From positions 1 through 40,535 of the IMG/VR virus record IMGVR_UViG_3300044455_000042: a stretch of 40,535 nt of DNA, one strand, 5' to 3'. Position 1 is the stretch's first letter. Every line of letters begins with the position of its first letter. The DNA is from a virus. Lineage: Duplodnaviria; Caudoviricetes. A model generated the notes under the pieces. It was not told the DNA's origin, made no database searches, and saw nothing but the letters and a program-made list of their open reading frames with translations. Below are positions 1-40,487 of this stretch, piece after piece. The position numbers and the translations under genes were made by a program.

Positions 1-127
1 TAACCGTGTTAACCTTGAAAAGTGGCGGACGATGCACACCCGGCGGGTGGCAAACCGGCAGGCGGGAGGGACATCATGAGAACCCCATTTCGATGAGCTT
101 CCCACGGGGTTCCCATTTGTCCCACGG
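1..127. repeat. Terminal direct repeat, copy 1 (circular assembly overlap)
   Basis: 1-127 is identical to 40409-40535 and contains the 3' end of the integrase ORF, so the contig circularises to 40408 bp. Confidence 0.95.
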
Positions 128-240
128 ACCTCAACGAAATCAATGGGTTAGACCACGCCTTGAGAACGCCTCAACTACCTCTAAGGCGTTGATATCATTG
201 GAGGCCGTGGGACATGGGACATACCCGTGGGACGATGGAA
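83..240. mobile_element. attP-like phage attachment site
   Basis: Directly after the int stop. Arm-type repeats TCCCACGG (100-107, 120-127) and inverted CCGTGGGAC (205-213, 225-233). Two inverted IHF consensus sites WATCAANNNNTTR (138-150 plus; 182-194 minus) flank the dyad TTGAG-AACGC-CTCAA (160-174). Confidence 0.75.
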
Positions 241-249
241 ATCAGTAGC

Positions 250-318
250 ATGATCGCCAAACCACCGAGGGCTCCGTTGGCGGTAGTATCCCTCGGCCGG
301 TACAGAATGGCGGCGTGA
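250..318 (+). CDS. Possible 22-aa mini-ORF MIAKPPRAPLAVVSLGRYRMAA
   Basis: ATG 250 to TGA 318, abutting the next ATG at 319; a related interrupted copy lies at 612-727; no clear SD. Confidence 0.3.
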   Translation: MIAKPPRAPLAVVSLGRYRMAA

Positions 319-699
319 ATGATGCGCTGCGATGCGTGCAAATTCTGGGTCGCGGGCGAACAGTACGTCGACGACGATCGGCTTGTTGATGAGAGGCGCG
401 GGAGTTGTCATCGAAGATCCCCTTCACCGTTGGTTGGGGATGTCCACTATGAAATTTTGAACCACTTGACTACGCTTGTTCACGCCGCCGTCGACGACCT
501 GTCTGAGAATTATTTCAACAATTGGGAGGAATCTTCCAACGCTTCATGCTCGTGGCCGACGACTGAAGCATCAGATTGGTGTGGCGAGTTTTCACAGAAG
601 GAAATCGTCCAATGATACCCGTGCCAGCGAGGGCTCCGTTGGCGGTAGCGCAGGCGCCTGGCTACCCTTCGGAGAACTCCGAAGGGTCGTATCCCTCGG
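266..699. repeat. Two-copy structured direct repeat (266-296 and 628-699)
   Basis: CGAGGGCTCCGTTGGCGGTAG is identical at 266-286 and 628-648; GTATCCCTCGG at 286-296 and 689-699; copy 2 has a 41-nt hairpin insertion. Confidence 0.85.
319..615 (+). CDS. Hypothetical Cys-motif phage protein
   Basis: 98 aa; CxxCxxW...GxCxRxxP...WPxTxxxDWCGEF pattern recalled from small alphaproteobacterial phage proteins. Confidence 0.7.
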   Translation: MMRCDACKFWVAGEQYVDDDRLVDERRGSCHRRSPSPLVGDVHYEILNHLTTLVHAAVDDLSENYFNNWEESSNASCSWPTTEASDWCGEFSQKEIVQ

Positions 700-806
700 A
701 AGATACCGGATGGCGAAGGCCGCCTAGCGCCGTTTCACGTGCAACGTGCCGACGCACCGGCCGCCCGCCAAAACGCACCAGCGGCCACGGCTACGCGAAT
801 GGGGGC

Positions 807-949
807 CGTTGCGCGGGACCGAGAGGGACTCAAACCCTCAGTACGCCGGTCCTTCGGGGTTAGCGCCATCCCGCCCGGCTCGCCGCTCGCAAGCGACTTA
901 TCGCGTCTGTCAGTTTAGGCGCATTCTTCCGCCATCGGCCCGCGCAACG
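807..949 (-). ncRNA. tRNA-like structured RNA (not a canonical tRNA)
   Basis: Minus strand: 7-bp acceptor-like stem GGGCCGA/TCGGTCC extended by CGTTGCGC/GCGCAACG; Leu-type D arm TGGCGGAA...AGACGC with an enlarged loop; T arm GAGGG-TTTGAGT-CCCTC; two hairpins replace the anticodon arm; no CCA. Confidence 0.65.
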
Positions 950-963: not shown

Positions 964-996
964 CAGCCTGCGCGCCCCCTACGCGGAACTGCGCAC

Positions 997-1026
997 TTGC
1001 AGCCCGCCGGCCGCCCATGGCAAGTT
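997..1026 (+). promoter_or_regulatory. Possible sigma70-type promoter for the rightward RNA/moron operon
   Basis: TTGCAG (997-1002), 18-nt spacer, TGn-CAAGTT (1018-1026); predicted start near 1033 where the RNA stem begins. Confidence 0.35.
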
Positions 1027-1032
1027 CCATCG

Positions 1033-1093
1033 CCGGACGCGGTTAGGGTAGCTCCCGAATAGCCGGTCCGTTAACCGGCCACGCCGTGTCCGG
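1033..1093 (+). ncRNA. Three-way-junction RNA, candidate antisense/leader regulator
   Basis: 10-bp stem CCGGACGCGG (1033-1042)/CCGTGTCCGG (1084-1093) encloses hairpins GGG-TAGCT-CCC and GCCGG-TCCGTTAA-CCGGC; AGGGTA and TCCGTTA are complementary to TACCCT (1094-1099) and TAACGGA (1102-1108). Confidence 0.6.
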
Positions 1094-1118
1094 TACCCTC
1101 GTAACGGAGAGGAACCCC

Positions 1119-1355
1119 ATGCCTGAAGAGATCACCCTCGACTTCATTGCGCGCCAGCTCGAGCGCGTCATCGCTGAACAGGGGAGCATACGCGACGACT
1201 TGCGCGTGCTCACCGCCATGACCCTGCGCGTCGACCACGGGCAGGCACGCACGGCAACCGACATCCAATTGCTGACCGACGAGGTGCGCGCGATGCATCA
1301 GCAACACGCGCGTTTCCATGACCGGCTGGTCAAGGTCGAGGAGGTGCGCTCATGA
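1119..1355 (+). CDS. Small coiled-coil hypothetical protein
   Basis: SD GGAGAGGA before ATG 1119; heptad-like MPEEITLDFIARQLERVIAEQGSIRDDLRVL. Confidence 0.8.
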   Translation: MPEEITLDFIARQLERVIAEQGSIRDDLRVLTAMTLRVDHGQARTATDIQLLTDEVRAMHQQHARFHDRLVKVEEVRS

Positions 1356-1813
1356 TCAGCCGCATCGCGCTCGCCCTGACCATCGCCGCGATCTCGACCA
1401 GCGCAGCCGCACAATCCAACCGCAAGCAGCCAACCTGGGACGACCTGCTCAGGCCGGTTGAGGCAAAGACGAACCCGAACGTCCCGATCGCACCACCCGC
1501 TCCAGCCGTCGCCGCTCAGCCACTACTGCCTCCTAGCATCAGCCCGGCGAACAGAGCTCCCCCAGCAAATCCCAATACAACGTTATTGGACGGCTGCGTC
1601 ATCAGCGCCATCGGCCGACTCCCGAAAGCAGAGGGGCTGCGTGTGCTGAAATCCTCATATGAACATTTCGAGTCTGGTCAGGTGTACCAACTCCAATACC
1701 AACTCTGGACCATATCGATCTCGGTTGATCTCCACGGACGCCAAGCCAACTATCAGTGGCGTTGCCGCATTAATGATAACAGTTCGTCCGAACTACTGCT
1801 CGGCGCCATGTGA
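1352..1813 (+). CDS. Exported protein (moron) with signal peptide and Pro-rich linker
   Basis: ATGA overlap with upstream gene, SD GAGGAGG; signal peptide MISRIALALTIAAISTSAAA; two Cys in the C-terminal domain. Confidence 0.75.
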   Translation: MISRIALALTIAAISTSAAAQSNRKQPTWDDLLRPVEAKTNPNVPIAPPAPAVAAQPLLPPSISPANRAPPANPNTTLLDGCVISAIGRLPKAEGLRVLKSSYEHFESGQVYQLQYQLWTISISVDLHGRQANYQWRCRINDNSSSELLLGAM

Positions 1814-31526: not shown

Positions 31527-32091
31527 GCTCAATCTCAGCCCGGAATGCAGTGCGTTCGTCTAATGATGCTTTCGCCCAGGCCTTGCGCAATTGTTTGAGC
31601 GGTGATGGCGGCTTGCGGAATCCAGCCTCGATGGCGGCGGCATTTGTCGAGAGTTCGCCAGCGATGACCTTCTCGGCGAGGTCGGGCCGGTCGCGCTTGA
31701 GACGCTTCAGTGCGTAGGTGGGATTGTTGCCCCGGTTAGGAGTGACATTGTCACTCCTATGTCCCCTTCCAACATGTTTCGGTGCCGCTCCTATTTCCTC
31801 GTTGATGCGTTTCTGCACATCCTCGCGCTTGCGGCAGATCGCCATCAGGTCAGCAATGGTGCAGCCGAGCCCCTCCCACAGCGGACAGGCGGCAAAAGCC
31901 TCAAACGATTTGAATTCCACACCGGCACTGTCGCAGCGCCCAACCCACTCATGCTCCCCAATAATCTCTTTCAGGATATTCGGCGCAATATCGAATATCC
32001 GCTTTCCGCCTTCGCTCAACACTTGTTGCAAGGTGTTGATCCGATCCGGCGGCTCAGCACTGACGCCTCGAATCCTGACTAGATCAACCAT
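31519..32091 (-). CDS. Hypothetical DNA-binding protein (ParB C-terminal HTH-like tail)
   Basis: 190 aa; RGNNPTYALKRLKRDRPDLAEKVIAGELSTNAAAIEAGFRKP. Confidence 0.7.
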   Translation of the reverse strand: MVDLVRIRGVSAEPPDRINTLQQVLSEGGKRIFDIAPNILKEIIGEHEWVGRCDSAGVEFKSFEAFAACPLWEGLGCTIADLMAICRKREDVQKRINEEIGAAPKHVGRGHRSDNVTPNRGNNPTYALKRLKRDRPDLAEKVIAGELSTNAAAIEAGFRKPPSPLKQLRKAWAKASLDERTAFRAEIEHG

Positions 32092-33872
32092 TGGGGCAAA
32101 CCGTTTTTCAGTGTGGCCTCAAACCGCCTCATCCAATCCATGTGCCGGCCAAGTTCGACGAGTGAGCAGCCATCCGGGTTACTGTGCAACTCTCTGTTCT
32201 TCTTCGCCTTGATCCGCTTGATGATGTCCTGATATTCGATAACCTGCAGTCGCCCGGCCTTCTTCATCATGCCCATGACCTGAAAAGTCTTCAGCCGGGC
32301 GGCATTCTCGATCTTGATCTTCTCTTTAATAATTAGCGCAGACTCATTAAATAACGGATCGCGTCTCTTCAACCCTTCGCGCAGTGCTTCTTCCACAATC
32401 CGTTCAACATCATCTTTAACCATTTGTTCGCTGTAGGGTCGGTTCATTACCTCTTGCATGACATTCTCATAGTGTGGGTGATCCCGGATATTTGTAAGTT
32501 CGGCATTCTTGATGATGACATCCGGCGGAATGGCATAGTCTCCCTCAAAGGTGGGCGGTTCGTGCGGCCCATTGTGATTGATTTCTGGTTTCTCCTCAAA
32601 ACATGTTTCGACATTGTCGCCCGCATATGCAGCCATTTCACACGCCTCATCGACGCTCACGATGCCCTTCGGTGTAGGAAGAATATTCCTAGGCACCCTA
32701 GATAGACGCCCGATCGTCTGCAGTGTCGTATTGTTTAATCCTGGCGCGTTCAAAAAGACCACCTCGCATACGTCGGTACAGTCCAGCCCTTCGCCAGCCA
32801 TTCCAACGTTCACTAAAATGTCGAGTGTCCACTGCCGTATTCCTGACGCATCCTTCGGCGGACAGAACCGCTTCAAGATTTCCTCGTTTTCTGCATCAGA
32901 CCGCCCGCGGGGACCTGTGCCAACCCAATCAACTTCAACACCGGGACTGATCAGGGATCTGATTTGCTCACACACCATCTTCGCATGAGAGCATGAGATG
33001 GCCTGCACCAGCATCTGCGCTTCAAATGAATAAGACATCATGCGAGCGAGTGGCTTCTCGAGCAGCGGCGAGAAATATCGCGGACTCCAACGCAACTCCC
33101 GCACAGCCATTTCACGGTCGATAACTTCGGGCTTGTCAGATCCGGCCATCTTGTAGATTTCGGCTGTCGTAAACGTCTGCACATCTACATTGTTGACCAT
33201 TGCATCGACGCGATAGTCATAAGCGTGAAGCTCTAGCGCCTTCACGTATCCCAGCCTCCGAGCGGCTCGGTATTCGAATTTGACATCAGGTTCGCCAAAT
33301 GGCTCGCTCTCGTCCTGACGGTACGGTGTAGCACTCATTGCCAGAAATGCCTGATGAGGCAGCGATTGCAGTTTCTTCGTCCATGCCTTATCCGGGCTGC
33401 CATAATGATGATATTCATCGATGACGATGAACCACCTTCCTGTAGCCATCATTTCTCGCAGAACCGTCAGCGCATTGCCGTTCGAAACAAGCGCCTGGAT
33501 AGTCGTGATAAATATCTCGCATTCCCCGGATCGATGCGCTTTCAGCGCGGGAAGCGGCGTGTCGCCCAAGATCAGCGACTTGGTGGGAATATTGAGAACC
33601 CGGCTCAGATCGCGCGGGAATTCCTCGGCCGCCTGAACTGCTTGGCTGCTGCGAGGAACAATGTAGAGCACCCGATTGACCAAGTTGCGACTGCGTTGCA
33701 CCGCATATGCCACCGCTGCCGTCCTGGTCTTGCCAATTCCGGTCGGCAATTTGGCAACAACGGTTGCGCGCTCAAAAAAGAGTTCTATGACCTCGCGCTG
33801 ACCTTGCCGTAACGATTCGCCAAGGCGGTCTTCGACTTGTGACAGGAAAGACATACGGCCTGAAGATTCCAT
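32079..33872 (-). CDS. Superfamily 2 (DExH, ResIII-like) helicase
   Basis: LRQGQRE, PTGIGKT, IDEYHH, SATPYR, MAGEGLD, QTIGRLSR motifs; SD GGAGGA before ATG 33872. Confidence 0.92.
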   Translation of the reverse strand: MESSGRMSFLSQVEDRLGESLRQGQREVIELFFERATVVAKLPTGIGKTRTAAVAYAVQRSRNLVNRVLYIVPRSSQAVQAAEEFPRDLSRVLNIPTKSLILGDTPLPALKAHRSGECEIFITTIQALVSNGNALTVLREMMATGRWFIVIDEYHHYGSPDKAWTKKLQSLPHQAFLAMSATPYRQDESEPFGEPDVKFEYRAARRLGYVKALELHAYDYRVDAMVNNVDVQTFTTAEIYKMAGSDKPEVIDREMAVRELRWSPRYFSPLLEKPLARMMSYSFEAQMLVQAISCSHAKMVCEQIRSLISPGVEVDWVGTGPRGRSDAENEEILKRFCPPKDASGIRQWTLDILVNVGMAGEGLDCTDVCEVVFLNAPGLNNTTLQTIGRLSRVPRNILPTPKGIVSVDEACEMAAYAGDNVETCFEEKPEINHNGPHEPPTFEGDYAIPPDVIIKNAELTNIRDHPHYENVMQEVMNRPYSEQMVKDDVERIVEEALREGLKRRDPLFNESALIIKEKIKIENAARLKTFQVMGMMKKAGRLQVIEYQDIIKRIKAKKNRELHSNPDGCSLVELGRHMDWMRRFEATLKNGLPQWLI

Positions 33873-35214: not shown

Positions 35215-35724
35215 ATGGCTGACCGCCTCGATCCGACCTTCGTCCGCGCACAGATAGCGCTGCTGCGCGTCACGCACCCCAACATATGGGACGAGGGCGA
35301 CGATCAACTGATCGCCGACATGCTCGAGGGGTCAACGGATCTGCACGAGTTTCTTGCCGCCGTCGTGCGCCGCATGGTTGAGGCCACGGCATTCGCCGCC
35401 GGCATCGAGGCGATGATCGACCAGATGAAAGCCCGCCGCGACCGGTTCAACCAGCGTACCGAGGCGATGCGCGGGCTGGCTCTGTCCATCATAACCGCGG
35501 CGCAGATCAAACGACTGGAACTACCCGAAGCCACGCTGTCTGTCGTGAAGCCGCGCGAGCGCGTTGTCGTTGCCAATGATGCCGATGTGCCCGCCACCTA
35601 CTGCCACCCGCCCGTAGTGAAGCCGGACCTCAAGAAGATCAAGGCGGCGCTAGATGCGGGCGAACGGTTCAATTGGGCATCCATCCAAGTCGGCGAGCCG
35701 ACGTTGATGGTACGGATTCGGTGA
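35215..35724 (+). CDS. Siphovirus Gp157-family protein
   Basis: DDQLIADMLEGSTDL, coiled coil, LELPEATLS, KPDLKKIKAALDAGE motifs. Confidence 0.88.
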   Translation: MADRLDPTFVRAQIALLRVTHPNIWDEGDDQLIADMLEGSTDLHEFLAAVVRRMVEATAFAAGIEAMIDQMKARRDRFNQRTEAMRGLALSIITAAQIKRLELPEATLSVVKPRERVVVANDADVPATYCHPPVVKPDLKKIKAALDAGERFNWASIQVGEPTLMVRIR

Positions 35725-36191
35725 TGGTTAACCCCGGTAAGCTTAAGCCGCTGTCTGAACGCTTTTGGCCTAAGGTCAAAAAGTCAGGGCCAGATGATTG
35801 CTGGATATGGATAGGCGCGAAGATGAGCCGAGGCTATGGCGTCATCAGCAAGGGCCACCATGTTGAGGGGAGGGCACTTGCGCATCGCATCTCATATGAA
35901 ATGCAAAACGGTCCCATTCCTGACGCCGCTTTATTTGTTTGCCACCGATGCGACACACCGGATTGCGTTAATCCGCATCATCTTTTCTTGGGAACCAATG
36001 CCGACAACGTGAGGGATTGCTACGCCAAAGGCCGCCGAACGGCGCCTCGTAGCCCGAAGCTTTCGGAGCAAAACATTGTAGCGATCCGCGCTTCGGGAGT
36101 CTCCTGCCTGACGCTAGCAGACCAATTCAGCGTTCATCACTCGACCATCACTTCTATCCGCCGCCGCAAAACATGGAAGAACGTCAAATGA
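35724..36191 (+). CDS. Free-standing HNH homing endonuclease (HNH_3-like plus HTH)
   Basis: RFWPKV...CWIWIG...GYG...AHRISY...VCHRCDTPDCVNPHHLFLGTNADNVRD...KGR. Confidence 0.92.
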   Translation: MVNPGKLKPLSERFWPKVKKSGPDDCWIWIGAKMSRGYGVISKGHHVEGRALAHRISYEMQNGPIPDAALFVCHRCDTPDCVNPHHLFLGTNADNVRDCYAKGRRTAPRSPKLSEQNIVAIRASGVSCLTLADQFSVHHSTITSIRRRKTWKNVK

Positions 36192-38853: not shown

Positions 38854-39291
38854 ATGTCGCGTCATTCGAAGCCGGTCGGGGAACACCTCTATTGCACCGA
38901 GGAAGAAATAGCCGAGTTCGTGCTTGGTCCCGGCCGACTGCGGGACTGGCGCGATCGGGTGAAGGTCTTGGAGCGGCAGGGGCTCCCGCAATTCGATCCC
39001 CTGATGGGCGGCCGATACCGGCCCGCCGTGCGCGCGTTTTTCGACCGCCTGAATGGCATCACGAATGAGGTGCTGCCGAGCAGGGCGGATCAACCGGAGA
39101 AGTGGAAGTCATGCGAACCAACGTCGTCAGTCTCCCCGACCGCGGCCCCGGCGACGCCCCGGGACTTGAATATGCGAACAGGGCAGGGGGCAAGCGTGTC
39201 CCGCTTTGGCGCGCGCCCAAGAAAGCCGTCAGACTTGGCTTCGAACCGAAGTCCGTCGCGCTCGCCGCCGACCTCTCCGAAGTCGAGCTAG
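38854..39291 (+). CDS. Excisionase-like winged-helix protein
   Basis: LYCTEEEIAEFVLG...LERQGLPQFDPLMGGRYRPAVRAFFD; directly upstream of and overlapping int. Confidence 0.7.
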   Translation: MSRHSKPVGEHLYCTEEEIAEFVLGPGRLRDWRDRVKVLERQGLPQFDPLMGGRYRPAVRAFFDRLNGITNEVLPSRADQPEKWKSCEPTSSVSPTAAPATPRDLNMRTGQGASVSRFGARPRKPSDLASNRSPSRSPPTSPKSS

Positions 39292-40487
39292 CGTCGGCAT
39301 GTCGCCGTCTCCAGGCACAGGCACTCGAATTCATTGGGAGCGGCGAAAACCGTGAGCCGAAGTTCGACGGCTCGATCAAGTCACTGTGCGAACTGTTCCA
39401 AACGCACCGGCTCGGCCCGTTCAAGCGCACGACGAACCCGGCGAAGTGGAACTCGCTCGAAACCTACACCAAGGATCTGAAGAAAATCATCGATACTGTC
39501 GGCGGCCGGCAACTGCACCGGCTCACGGCAGACGATTTCCAGGACTGGTACGAGCACTGGCGCGAGCCGAAGACGCCGGGCGGCGCCCCGCTGATCGCGA
39601 CCGCGCACCGCACCATGACGATGGTGCGGATGGTGATGCGCTTCGGCATGATGATCGAGGCGTCACCGCATTGCGGGCGGCTCGGTGCGGAGCGCGACGG
39701 TGTCCTGGCGAACATGACGTTCCCGAACGCACCCCCGCGCACCGCGATGGTCACCGCCGAGATGATCGACAAGGCTTGCGAGTTTGTCCGCAGCCGGGGC
39801 TATTTCGAAATGGCGCTCGCGTTCGCCATTCAGTTCGAGACTGCGCTTCGGCCGAAGGATGTCATCGGGGAGTGGACGCCGAACAAGGCCGGTGAACCTG
39901 ATAACGAGCCGAGCCCCTTCACCACCGCCCGCACGCGCTGGGAGCATGGCCTGACCTGGGGCGAGCATGTCGATGCCGACCTGATCATGGCAAAGCCGAC
40001 CTGCAAGAGCCGGTTCACCAAGACCGTGGTTGCCGACTGGACCCTGTGCCCGATGATCATGCGCGAGCTTGCCTTCTTGCCCAAAGAGCAGCGCGTCGGC
40101 CCGGTGATCCGGCAAGGCGACTGGCATCTGCGCCGGCGGTTCGTCGAGAACGGCGAGTCGTTCGTCGAGCGCGTGCCGGGGCGGGCGGCCGGTCGCCCGT
40201 GGAACGCGACGGTGTTTTCGTTCGACGTGATGGAGCTGTTCCGCGAGCTGGCCGAGACGGACCCGCGCTTTGTCGGCGTCACAAACCGCGACCTGCGGTC
40301 GGGTGCGATCACCGAGGCGATGAACAAGCTGGAAGGCGAGGGCATCGAGATGGGTAACGTGCAAAAGCTCTACGGCACCCACGGCGAGCGCGGAACGACC
40401 CAGCGTTATAACCGTGTTAACCTTGAAAAGTGGCGGACGATGCACACCCGGCGGGTGGCAAACCGGCAGGCGGGAGGGACATCATGA
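39111..40487 (+). CDS. int: Tyrosine integrase
   Basis: Catalytic-type residues: QFETALRPKD (R), KPTCKS (K), RDLRSGAITEA (R), GTHG (H), TTQRYNR (Y); followed by the attP-like site. Confidence 0.9.
   Translation: MRTNVVSLPDRGPGDAPGLEYANRAGGKRVPLWRAPKKAVRLGFEPKSVALAADLSEVELASACRRLQAQALEFIGSGENREPKFDGSIKSLCELFQTHRLGPFKRTTNPAKWNSLETYTKDLKKIIDTVGGRQLHRLTADDFQDWYEHWREPKTPGGAPLIATAHRTMTMVRMVMRFGMMIEASPHCGRLGAERDGVLANMTFPNAPPRTAMVTAEMIDKACEFVRSRGYFEMALAFAIQFETALRPKDVIGEWTPNKAGEPDNEPSPFTTARTRWEHGLTWGEHVDADLIMAKPTCKSRFTKTVVADWTLCPMIMRELAFLPKEQRVGPVIRQGDWHLRRRFVENGESFVERVPGRAAGRPWNATVFSFDVMELFRELAETDPRFVGVTNRDLRSGAITEAMNKLEGEGIEMGNVQKLYGTHGERGTTQRYNRVNLEKWRTMHTRRVANRQAGGTS

What the first reader, a model, noticed from the sequence alone, without database searches (positions are those of the whole stretch)
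250..727. Paired repeats flanking ORF 319-615: same short peptide, one copy split by a 41-nt hairpin
Seen: copy 1 reads MIAKPPRAPLAV-VSLGRYRMAA. Copy 2 (ATG 612, overlapping the previous stop) reads MIPVPARAPLAV, then a 41-nt insert holding the hairpin CCCTTCGGAG-AA-CTCCGAAGGG, then VSLGRYRMAKAA in another frame. LGRYRMA is kept through synonymous changes (GGC/GGA, CGG/AGA, AGA/CGG), and GTA codons sit on both sides of the insert. Both copies also fold (CGAGGG/CCCTCG). Inference: either duplicated structured RNA elements, or a micro-peptide pair in which one copy is disrupted or needs recoding (bypass or frameshift).
Basis: partly seen in the sequence, partly recalled or inferred. Interest (0 to 1): 0.7.

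Follow-up and report, generated by a model that had tools for sequence, protein, structure and literature searches.

The report
Orphaned serine-integrase tails flanking phage gene
The two repeats are copies of the last ~25 codons and attachment site of a serine-integrase gene that related phages still carry whole, likely left behind when this phage acquired a different integrase; the second copy is frameshifted and shows no signal of ribosomal recoding, so it is likely just decaying.

Summary
The repeats are real (250-318 and 612-727; 41 extra nt at 649-689), but they are neither a new structured RNA nor a recoded micro-peptide. They match the 3' end of a large serine recombinase (LSR) gene. 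Related phages with the same downstream module carry an LSR ending GRYRMAA-stop at this spot, across an inverted-repeat attachment site. 62 of 121 LSRs examined end in a conserved LGRW/Y...AA tail. In Bradyrhizobium chromosomes the LSR lacks the tail (0 of 27 loci), and the detached tail sits at the other junction (9 of 9), so integration cuts it off. This phage has a likely tyrosine integrase instead and keeps only the tail. A second phage with an unrelated tyrosine integrase also keeps it, and a third has the same tail-cargo-tail layout. The synonymous codon pattern is explained by this coding origin. Copy 2's extra bases are partly ancestral linker, out of frame, without bypass or frameshift signals. 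Stand-alone translation of copy 1 is possible but untested. Integrases that span attP are in print (Mx8, Goe14, DsiB), and this scan noted such tails before on other DNA.

The parts
39111..40487 (+). Resident integrase, likely tyrosine type; its last codons recur at 1-79 because the 127-bp terminal repeat closes the circle
   Evidence: Terminal repeat. Only weak profile hits (Phage_int_SAM_1 E 0.19, XerD E 0.14). A low-confidence model (mean pLDDT 51) has lambda and Tn1549 integrases as its top 9 fold matches, best E 0.0065. No LSR body found in the genome.
100..232 (.). Predicted attP of the resident integrase: 53-nt imperfect inverted arms with two IHF-like boxes (138-150 on +, 182-194 on -)
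   Evidence: Inverted repeat I1; boxes by a recalled consensus; conserved in L003 and L004. Not tested as attP.
250..318 (+). Copy 1: orphan 3' end of an LSR gene (inner attachment-site arms plus tail), open 22-codon frame with its own ATG; outer right arm and linker missing
   Evidence: Aligns to LSR tails (P0004 tail E 7e-9 against the window); arm symmetry 12 of 25 versus 21 of 25 in L009.
266..286 (+). 21-nt core shared exactly by both copies and by L003 and L004; predicted crossover dinucleotide AG at 268-269
   Evidence: centre inferred from arm symmetry.
319..615 (+). Cargo gene in a variable slot: 98-aa phage protein with CxxC and WP...WCGEF motifs, function not assigned
   Evidence: No Pfam, PHROG or NCBIfam family; nearest ESM Atlas clusters are unnamed viral proteins, scores 0.91-0.92; relatives hold other genes or nothing here.
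612..727 (+). Copy 2: second orphan LSR 3' end, frameshifted between core and tail (68 nt from centre to the GRYR codons; 27, 45 or 54 nt in the other copies)
   Evidence: homology to copy 1 starts at GGAAATC (about 601), inside the last codons of the cargo.
649..689 (+). 41-nt segment: 3' part is homologous to the LSR linker (ELR-RVVSLGRYRMA against DLRGRIYTLGRYRMA of P0003); the rest is made of short inverted copies of neighbouring bases
   Evidence: tblastn; inverted copies 651-660, 661-666 against 644-649, 664-674 against 677-687.
732..745 (.). parS-like palindrome that marks the right edge of the slot
   Evidence: Only such site in the genome within 2 mismatches of a recalled consensus; found in 4 of 5 related loci scanned and in L147.

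Best explanation
Both repeats are detached copies of the 3' end of a large serine recombinase gene (its attachment site plus the GRYRMAA tail), likely stranded when the integration module was replaced by a likely tyrosine integrase and likely doubled when a cargo gene was gained, with copy 2 likely decaying by an ordinary frameshift. How it works, step by step. (1) Shown: in related phages an LSR reading frame runs through an inverted-repeat site and ends in this tail at the same genomic position. (2) Shown in the wider family: integration cuts the gene at that site, so the integrated enzyme ends in host-derived residues and the tail is left at the other junction. (3) Inferred: the Ala-Ala end is a ClpXP-type degron that makes the free-phage integrase short-lived. 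(4) Inferred: module swaps cross over just left of the site and leave site plus tail behind; this is seen with two unrelated tyrosine integrases. (5) Inferred: cargo genes enter behind the tail's stop codon and use it for translational coupling; recombination between a cargo-bearing and a cargo-free allele yields tail-cargo-tail, and recombination between the two copies would remove the cargo again (L003 has copy 1's middle with copy 2's 3' end). (6) Inferred: copy 2 lost its frame by one base, plausibly when the quasi-palindrome became perfect; nothing has to be recoded.
For: L009, L012 and L013 share the downstream module or the parS-like site and carry LSRs (Resolvase, Recombinase and Zn-ribbon domains) that end [LF]GRYRMAA-stop. 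LSR fragment P0122 ends TARAPLAQTYPATIVSLGRYRMAA. 69 of 121 LSRs have the tail motif, 62 of 121 end in AA, and all 62 have the motif; tail in 1 of 9 proteins on contigs over 100 kb against 13 of 16 on 30-100 kb contigs, Fisher p 0.002. Bradyrhizobium-genus loci: 0 of 27 keep the tail and 21 of 27 end KSVSS, which is the antisense reading of an uninterrupted ybgC gene; 9 of 9 opposite junctions encode the LGRW tail. L013 has integrase-tail / cargo / second tail. L147 has an unrelated tyrosine integrase followed by an orphan site and tail with no upstream ATG in frame. In run X2 one contig matches 255-284 exactly and runs left into the outer arm of an inverted repeat, another runs right of 286 into the opposite arm, and a third has copy 2's 5' half without any tail.
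Against: No complete LSR gene with exactly the window's core was retrieved: the nearest are P0122, P0004 and 30-letter contig ends. The order of events (swap, cargo gain, doubling) rests on a handful of loci and no tree. Among the four window-type orphans all 6 variable sites in 9 tail codons are silent (p about 0.001-0.002 if they diverged in place), 4 orphan copies (copy 1, L003, L004, L013 copy 2) have an in-frame ATG, and AGA codons occur in orphans but in 0 of 8 Arg codons of the four intact-type tails printed; this may mean the orphan frame is itself under selection. None of the 9 Bradyrhizobium junction tails ends in AA (KA, KP, IA, VA, TA), which weakens the degron reading for that branch. 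The resident integrase is tyrosine-type only on weak evidence.
Confidence: 0.8

Rival explanations
1. Same origin, but the orphan has been domesticated: copy 1 is a translated 22-aa leader kept by selection, either to deliver ribosomes to the cargo gene or as a free degron peptide (protease decoy, or an interfering fragment for LSRs of competing elements). Copy 2 is free to decay because copy 1 is intact.
For: In-frame ATG in copy 1, L003, L004 and L013 copy 2, from at least two different left flanks; the short form has lost a multiple of three bases (27 against 45 or 54 nt); silent-only variation in the tail; two different 3' ends both finish in AA; the orphan follows the attP arm in the window, L003 and L004 and in contigs of runs X1, X2 and X4; stop-start contact with the cargo in the window, L004, L012 and L013.
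Against: The L147 orphan has no in-frame ATG or GTG upstream, only an internal TTG. L003 and L013 copy 2 have no cargo behind them to couple. One contig lacks the tail altogether. L013 copy 2 has the codons of another LSR allele (L012), so silent differences can come from the allele pool. The 9-codon test window was chosen after seeing the conservation, and the 5' codons change freely (I/M, A/P, K/V, P/S).
Confidence: 0.2
2. The copies are working attachment sites: the cargo is a cassette moved in and out by an LSR supplied in trans, as in an integron.
For: The 21-nt core is invariant in the window's two copies, L003 and L004; tail-cargo-tail occurs in 2 of 4 cargo-bearing loci (window, L013; not L004, L012); L003 looks like an empty site.
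Against: Both window copies lack the outer right arm (GCAAACCC in L009, L012, L013), and arm symmetry is 12 and 6 of 25 against 21 of 25 in L009. Both copies carry the same phage-side half, not the complementary attL/attR pair that one integration leaves. No contig joined copy 1 to copy 2 in the four runs laid on 60-1400 (contigs drop rare forms).
Confidence: 0.06
3. Duplicated structured RNA, for example an antisense RNA against the ribosome-binding site of the gene at 1120 or a target of the C4-like leader at 1033-1093.
For: Copy 1 and L004 fold into a long hairpin (z -2.07 and -2.26) with one apparent compensatory pair; the core holds CTCCGTT and CGAGGG, complementary to AACGGAG and CCCTCG at 1096-1109.
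Against: L003 does not fold better than shuffles (z +0.74, 154 of 200). Duplex energy with the target ranks only in the best 4.4% and 2.0% of 26,924 genome windows. The cores of L009, L012, L013 and L147 lack these blocks although L009, L012 and L147 have the leader and target. No Rfam match.
Confidence: 0.05
4. Programmed recoding in copy 2 (ribosomal bypass from GTA 645 to GTC 686 or GTA 689, or a -1 shift) regenerates the peptide.
For: Matching Val codons flank the segment and it holds a stable hairpin. The -1 frame is open from 647 to the stop at 725-727, and a single-tRNA -1 re-pairing is possible at CCT 666.
Against: The codon after GTA is GCG, not a stop, and frame 0 stays open for 83 codons; there is no tandem slippery heptamer; the hairpin overlaps the only -1 site instead of lying downstream. 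The features of T4 gene 60 and byps used for comparison are recalled. The segment is unique to this copy, is partly ancestral linker, and an intact copy 1 makes recoding unnecessary.
Confidence: 0.03

Closest known systems
Integrase of SPbeta-like Bacillus phage vB_BsuS-Goe14 (bioRxiv 10.1101/2021.11.22.469490; passages seen; its supplements were not seen)
   Same: Serine integrase with attP in its C-terminal coding region; integration truncates it and leaves the cut-off end as a separate ORF.
   Different: There 131 residues are lost and no degron is described in the passages seen; here the tail is about 20-25 residues, ends AA in the phage branch, and is found orphaned in phages that have lost the LSR body.
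DsiB of Dehalococcoides ssrA islands (PMC3146451; passages seen)
   Same: Large serine recombinase whose 3' end overlaps the attachment site, so the stop codon depends on integration state; displaced 3' fragments remain at island borders.
   Different: Targets ssrA in Chloroflexota; authors describe the C-terminus as divergent, whereas this family has a conserved LGRW/Y...AA tail.
Myxophage Mx8 integrase (PMC6070905 and PMC4383910; passages seen)
   Same: attP inside int; integration gives a new 3' end and alters activity.
   Different: Tyrosine-family enzyme (recalled; the Islander passage treats it among tyrosine integrases); no orphan tails or cargo-flanking copies in the passages seen.
Integration-dependent immunity of mycobacteriophages BPs, Brujita, Charlie (PMC3694055; first third of the text read)
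   Same: Integration removes a C-terminal proteolysis tag encoded across attP.
   Different: There attP lies in the repressor gene and the integrase keeps its tag; here the integrase's own tail is cut, and a degron role is only predicted.
ybgC attachment site (attBY) of bipartite Bradyrhizobium symbiosis ICEs (PMC9174649; passages seen)
   Same: The chromosomal relatives of this LSR family break ybgC.
   Different: The passages seen do not name the integrase family or a split tail; that these loci are those symICEs was not tested.
Translational bypassing (T4 gene 60, byps); recalled, no paper read
   Same: Matching codons around a hairpin.
   Different: No stop or hungry codon after take-off, no conservation, and the segment is partly ancestral coding linker.

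Membership tests
3' end of a large serine recombinase gene spanning its attachment site | Homology to the C-terminus of proteins with Resolvase, Recombinase and Zn-ribbon domains | tested here: met
3' end of a large serine recombinase gene spanning its attachment site | About 50-bp site with inverted arms around a central dinucleotide inside the reading frame | tested here: met
   L009: 21 of 25 positions symmetric; window copies keep the inner part only, 12 and 6 of 25.
3' end of a large serine recombinase gene spanning its attachment site | Integration separates the tail from the enzyme body | tested here: met
   Shown for Bradyrhizobium-genus relatives at about 43-45% identity to P0001: empty site, truncated LSR, tail at the other junction. 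Not shown for a prophage of the window's own group.
Functional LSR attP site | Both outer (zinc-domain) motifs present; attP and attB differ by their spacing (PMC11722253, passages) | tested here: not met
   Outer right arm absent from both copies.
Functional LSR attP site | Cognate LSR encoded in the element | tested here: not met
   No match to P0004 by the genome search; tblastn finds only the two tails.
C-terminal Ala-Ala ClpXP degron | Ends in AA, unstructured | tested here: met
   Both copies end AA; 62 of 121 LSRs end AA; the last ~45 residues of P0001 are low-confidence in the model. AA as a Caulobacter ClpXP signal: PMC11034885, passages.
C-terminal Ala-Ala ClpXP degron | ClpXP-dependent degradation, lost on AA-to-DD change | not testable with these tools
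   Needs experiment; 0 of 9 Bradyrhizobium junction tails end AA.
Programmed translational bypass | Matched take-off and landing codons | tested here: met
   GTA 645-647; GTC 686-688 or GTA 689-691.
Programmed translational bypass | Stop or undecodable codon after take-off (recalled feature) | tested here: not met
   GCG follows; frame open for 83 codons.
Programmed translational bypass | Coding gap conserved in homologues | tested here: not met
   Out of frame in 1 of 9 copies measured.
Programmed -1 frameshift | X XXY YYZ heptamer with a structure 5-9 nt downstream (recalled feature) | tested here: not met
   No heptamer in 612-692.
Known structured RNA family | Rfam match; conserved fold with covariation | tested here: not met
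   No match over 250-727 at E up to 10; fold not kept in L003. Too few sequences for a formal covariation test.
Translated small ORF | Ribosome occupancy or peptide product | not testable with these tools
   No RNA reads available; only sequence signals.

The most novel reading that the evidence does not exclude
Phages that swapped their serine integrase for a tyrosine integrase have repeatedly kept its tail as a stand-alone, translated 22-34-residue peptide: a portable degron or LGRW/Y motif that titrates ClpXP or an adaptor, or interferes with the LSRs of competing phages and ICEs, while its stop codon serves as a plug-in point for cargo genes.
Probability: 0.15. Interest if true: 0.7.

Novelty: new variant of a known kind. 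Interest (0 to 1): 0.32.

Why it matters
It removes an apparent case of ribosomal recoding and explains the silent codon changes as the trace of an integrase gene. The wider result is a large alphaproteobacterial LSR family, including the branch that breaks ybgC in Bradyrhizobium, whose conserved C-terminal tail exists only in the excised state. If the tail is a degron, integration itself would set integrase stability, which is directly testable and relevant to anyone using these LSRs as tools, since database entries mix the two forms. The orphan copies also record how temperate phages swap integration modules and collect cargo at a fixed slot. The principle is in print for other integrases and has been noted several times by this scan, which limits the surprise.

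Tried and rejected
Rfam scan of 1-2000: nothing over 250-727. ARAGORN: no tRNA or tmRNA; at a lowered threshold it called 60 candidates genome-wide, so the tRNA-like look of 810-872 is not evidence. A tmRNA-tag reading of VSLGRYRMAA was dropped when the LSR homologues appeared. Exact and gapped searches for the core found nothing in viral contigs or genome contigs; blastn against phage and plasmid records gave only short chance-level hits. Four viral relatives of the resident integrase at 46% identity lack the element downstream; three of their records were searched whole, 0 of 3. The 80 genome loci from the LSR alignment were mostly a more distant branch: 0 of 70 closed ORFs had the tail. No detached tail was found in about 63 kb beside the Microvirga LSR. 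Antisense pairing of the core with the 1120 ribosome-binding site is not exceptional. The structure string given was misplaced against the alignment, so that count is void; loop-target complementarity was read instead (the L012 row picked a wrong start and was ignored). Sequencing runs: no RNA holder listed; one guessed RNA run covered only short unrelated pieces. The resident integrase found no solved relative by sequence and no PHROG. The AlphaFold model of P0001 gives no confident place for the tail. No complex was predicted.

Full report
Setting. The window is a complete circular phage genome: the first 127 bases repeat at the end, and it encodes portal, capsid, terminase, tape measure, endolysin and a repressor-like HTH protein. 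The best-holding sequencing runs are soil metagenomes and may be its source. An alphaproteobacterial host is inferred only from the relatives of the LSR below. The finding lies right behind a 458-aa integrase (39111-40487) and an inverted-repeat region (100-232) with two IHF-like boxes (recalled consensus). That integrase is probably tyrosine-type: profile hits are weak, and a poor model has lambda and Tn1549 integrases as its nine best fold matches, best E 0.0065.

Observation. All sequence facts hold. The 21-nt core is the only exact repeat of that length in the genome and was not reproduced in 100 shuffles. Copy 1 folds modestly better than shuffles (7 of 200), copy 2 likewise (10 of 200) but without the CGAGGG/CCCUCG pair.

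Close relatives. An exact search of metagenome contigs gave two loci. Both carry the same integrase and attP-like region. L003 has one copy, with copy 1's middle and copy 2's 3' end, and no cargo. L004 has one copy whose stop abuts a 180-aa gene. Contigs of public runs laid on the region add variants (X1 and X2 are one sample, possibly the source). One matches 232-286 and continues with the outer arm of an inverted repeat. One matches 255-284 without a difference and runs left into the opposite arm. One has copy 2's 5' half but no tail. One from another study matches 255-318 and continues into a different gene. So the slot between the element and a parS-like palindrome (732-745) is variable.

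What the element is. A search for the conserved leader at 1033-1093 returned L009 (the other hit, L010, lies inside an unrelated ORF). L009 has the same leader and a homologue of the 1352-1813 gene, but in place of the tyrosine integrase a 574-aa large serine recombinase. Its frame ends FASAKPANPDLAEANPGQIVSFGRYRMAA and crosses a site whose arms are symmetric at 21 of 25 positions. Four closer homologues also end GRYRMAA, and fragment P0122 ends TARAPLAQTYPATIVSLGRYRMAA. DNA alignment places both window copies on this 3' end. tblastn of LSR tails against the window finds 241-315 (best E 7e-9) and 674-715, and no LSR body.

The tail in the family. Of 121 proteins (P0001 plus the best 120 of 1215 hits), 69 have a [LFM]G[RK][WY]-type motif near the end and 62 end in AA; all 62 have the motif. 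Among the 119 with a contig length, the tail is in 1 of 9 on contigs over 100 kb, 13 of 16 at 30-100 kb and 53 of 94 below 30 kb (Fisher p 0.002 for the first two). In 201 genomes of the genus of G005 (Bradyrhizobium by the title of L056), 23 had a close LSR; 0 of 27 loci keep the tail and 21 end KSVSS. Those residues are the antisense reading of ybgC, seen uninterrupted in two genomes. Searching 10 of the 23 genomes with the other half of ybgC gave 9 strong matches, and 9 of 9 continue in frame into an LGRW tail. The two junctions often lie far apart or inverted, as expected for the bipartite symbiosis ICEs that use ybgC (PMC9174649, passages); I did not test that these are those elements. 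Against a simple degron story, none of these 9 tails ends in AA. C-terminal AA is a ClpXP signal in Caulobacter (PMC11034885, passages), and the tail of P0001 is low-confidence in an AlphaFold model, which fits a flexible tag but proves nothing.

Orphans recur. L013 has a whole LSR, a 207-aa methylase-like cargo behind its stop, and then a second tail copy with its own ATG overlapping the cargo's stop: the layout of the window. L012 has LSR and cargo without a second copy. A last viral scan for the tail codons gave 5 loci from 4 records: the three LSR records and L147. L147 has a tyrosine integrase (PF00589) with no significant likeness to the window's, its own inverted arms, then an orphan site and tail and the parS-like site. 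So at least two separate module swaps left the tail behind.

The 41 nt. From the site centre to the GRYR codons there are 27 nt in copy 1, L003 and L004, 45 in L009, 54 in L012, L013 (both) and L147, and 68 in copy 2, the only one out of frame. The 3' part of the segment aligns with the LSR linker (ELR-RVVSLGRYRMA against DLRGRIYTLGRYRMA), so copy 1 is a deletion form as much as copy 2 is an insertion form. The rest consists of short inverted copies of nearby bases, typical of template switching (recalled). A one-base loss that perfected the palindrome would explain the frameshift; this is inference. Recoding signals are missing: GCG follows the proposed take-off codon, frame 0 is open for 83 codons, and there is no slippery heptamer. 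The sequence itself is supported by a contig of run X2 with no differences over 255-1400.

Is the orphan doing something? Neither copy is a whole attP: the outer right arm is gone and symmetry is 12 and 6 of 25 (role of outer motifs from PMC11722253 and PMC5499577, passages). For translation: in-frame ATGs in copy 1, L003, L004 and L013 copy 2; an in-frame shortening; and 6 of 6 silent sites in 9 tail codons among four orphans (p 0.001-0.002 under in-place neutral change; window chosen after the fact, and the 5' codons vary freely). Against it: L147 has no in-frame ATG, one contig has lost the tail, and L013 copy 2 carries another allele's codons. I give domestication about 0.2. An RNA role is weaker: no Rfam match, no fold in L003, and unremarkable pairing with the downstream ribosome-binding site.

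Comparison with what is known. Attachment sites inside integrase genes are described for Goe14 (serine; bioRxiv 10.1101/2021.11.22.469490, passages), DsiB (serine; PMC3146451, passages) and Mx8 (PMC6070905, PMC4383910, passages). Removal of a proteolysis tag by integration is described for the BPs repressor (PMC3694055, first of three parts read). Searches, seen as listings, showed no paper on this family's tail or on orphan tails in tyrosine-integrase phages; the library lacks most subscription papers, and no supplements were read (those of the Goe14 preprint describe its detached ORF and could bear on novelty). This scan has earlier unchecked notes of the same principle on other DNA and none for this sequence or genome.

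Verdict. A real repeat with a settled origin: orphaned LSR 3' ends around an exchangeable cargo gene. It works like a scar and likely a coupling point, is not a member of any recoding class tested, and is a new variant of a known kind. Confidence in the identity is about 0.95, in the whole account 0.8. Interest 0.32.

Noticed in passing
window 996-1112: C4/CI-like structured leader (1033-1093; z -3.9; weak int-alpA hit 22.3 bits against 35.8 gathering) with a loop complementary to the ribosome-binding site just downstream. Loop and target change together: TCCGTTA/TAACGGA in the window, CCGTAAC/GTTACGG in L009, TCCGTA/TACGGA in L012. A CTTGC promoter-like box at 996-1000 is invariant in 5 of 5 loci. 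Compared with C4 from passages of PMC5320573 and PMC2864571.
   Followed up: partly
window 732-745: Single parS-like palindrome, kept just behind the slot in L003, L004, L009, L013 and L147; a phage might use host ParB. Consensus recalled.
   Followed up: partly
L095-L116, L119 and L126-L138: LSRs of the Bradyrhizobium genus break ybgC; the host side supplies an in-frame ATG in front of the detached tail in most junctions, so a ~28-aa tail ORF could be translated from the integrated state.
   Followed up: partly
window 664-674 and 1094-1109: The 41-nt segment holds CTACCCT, complementary to the first loop region of the leader, and the core holds two blocks complementary to the leader's target; not conserved outside the window-type loci and not exceptional in energy.
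   Followed up: partly
window 810-872, minus strand: tRNA-like look with a T-arm-type hairpin; not called by ARAGORN, z about 0, not seen in L003 or L004.
   Followed up: partly
window 1120-1813: Two plus-strand genes behind the leader (a coiled-coil-like 78-aa ORF and a signal-peptide-bearing 153-aa ORF) facing the lysis genes across a terminator-like hairpin at about 1826-1870; the second is conserved in L003, L004, L009, L012, L147 and has no family hit; a lysogen-expressed gene such as superinfection exclusion is a guess.
   Followed up: no
window 39111-40487: Divergent integrase with no Pfam, PHROG or NCBIfam hit below E 0.1; viral relatives at 46% identity have a different attP core. Its host target was not found.
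   Followed up: partly
L012:4231-5229, L013:4234-4857, L004:1554-2096: Cargo in the slot is often a DNA cytosine methylase-like gene (L012 passes TIGR00675; L013 weak; L004 no hit).
   Followed up: partly
window 35673-36191 and 32079-33872: An HNH-like ORF between the Gam-like gene and a likely annealing protein (by eye), and a lower-GC helicase gene.
   Followed up: no
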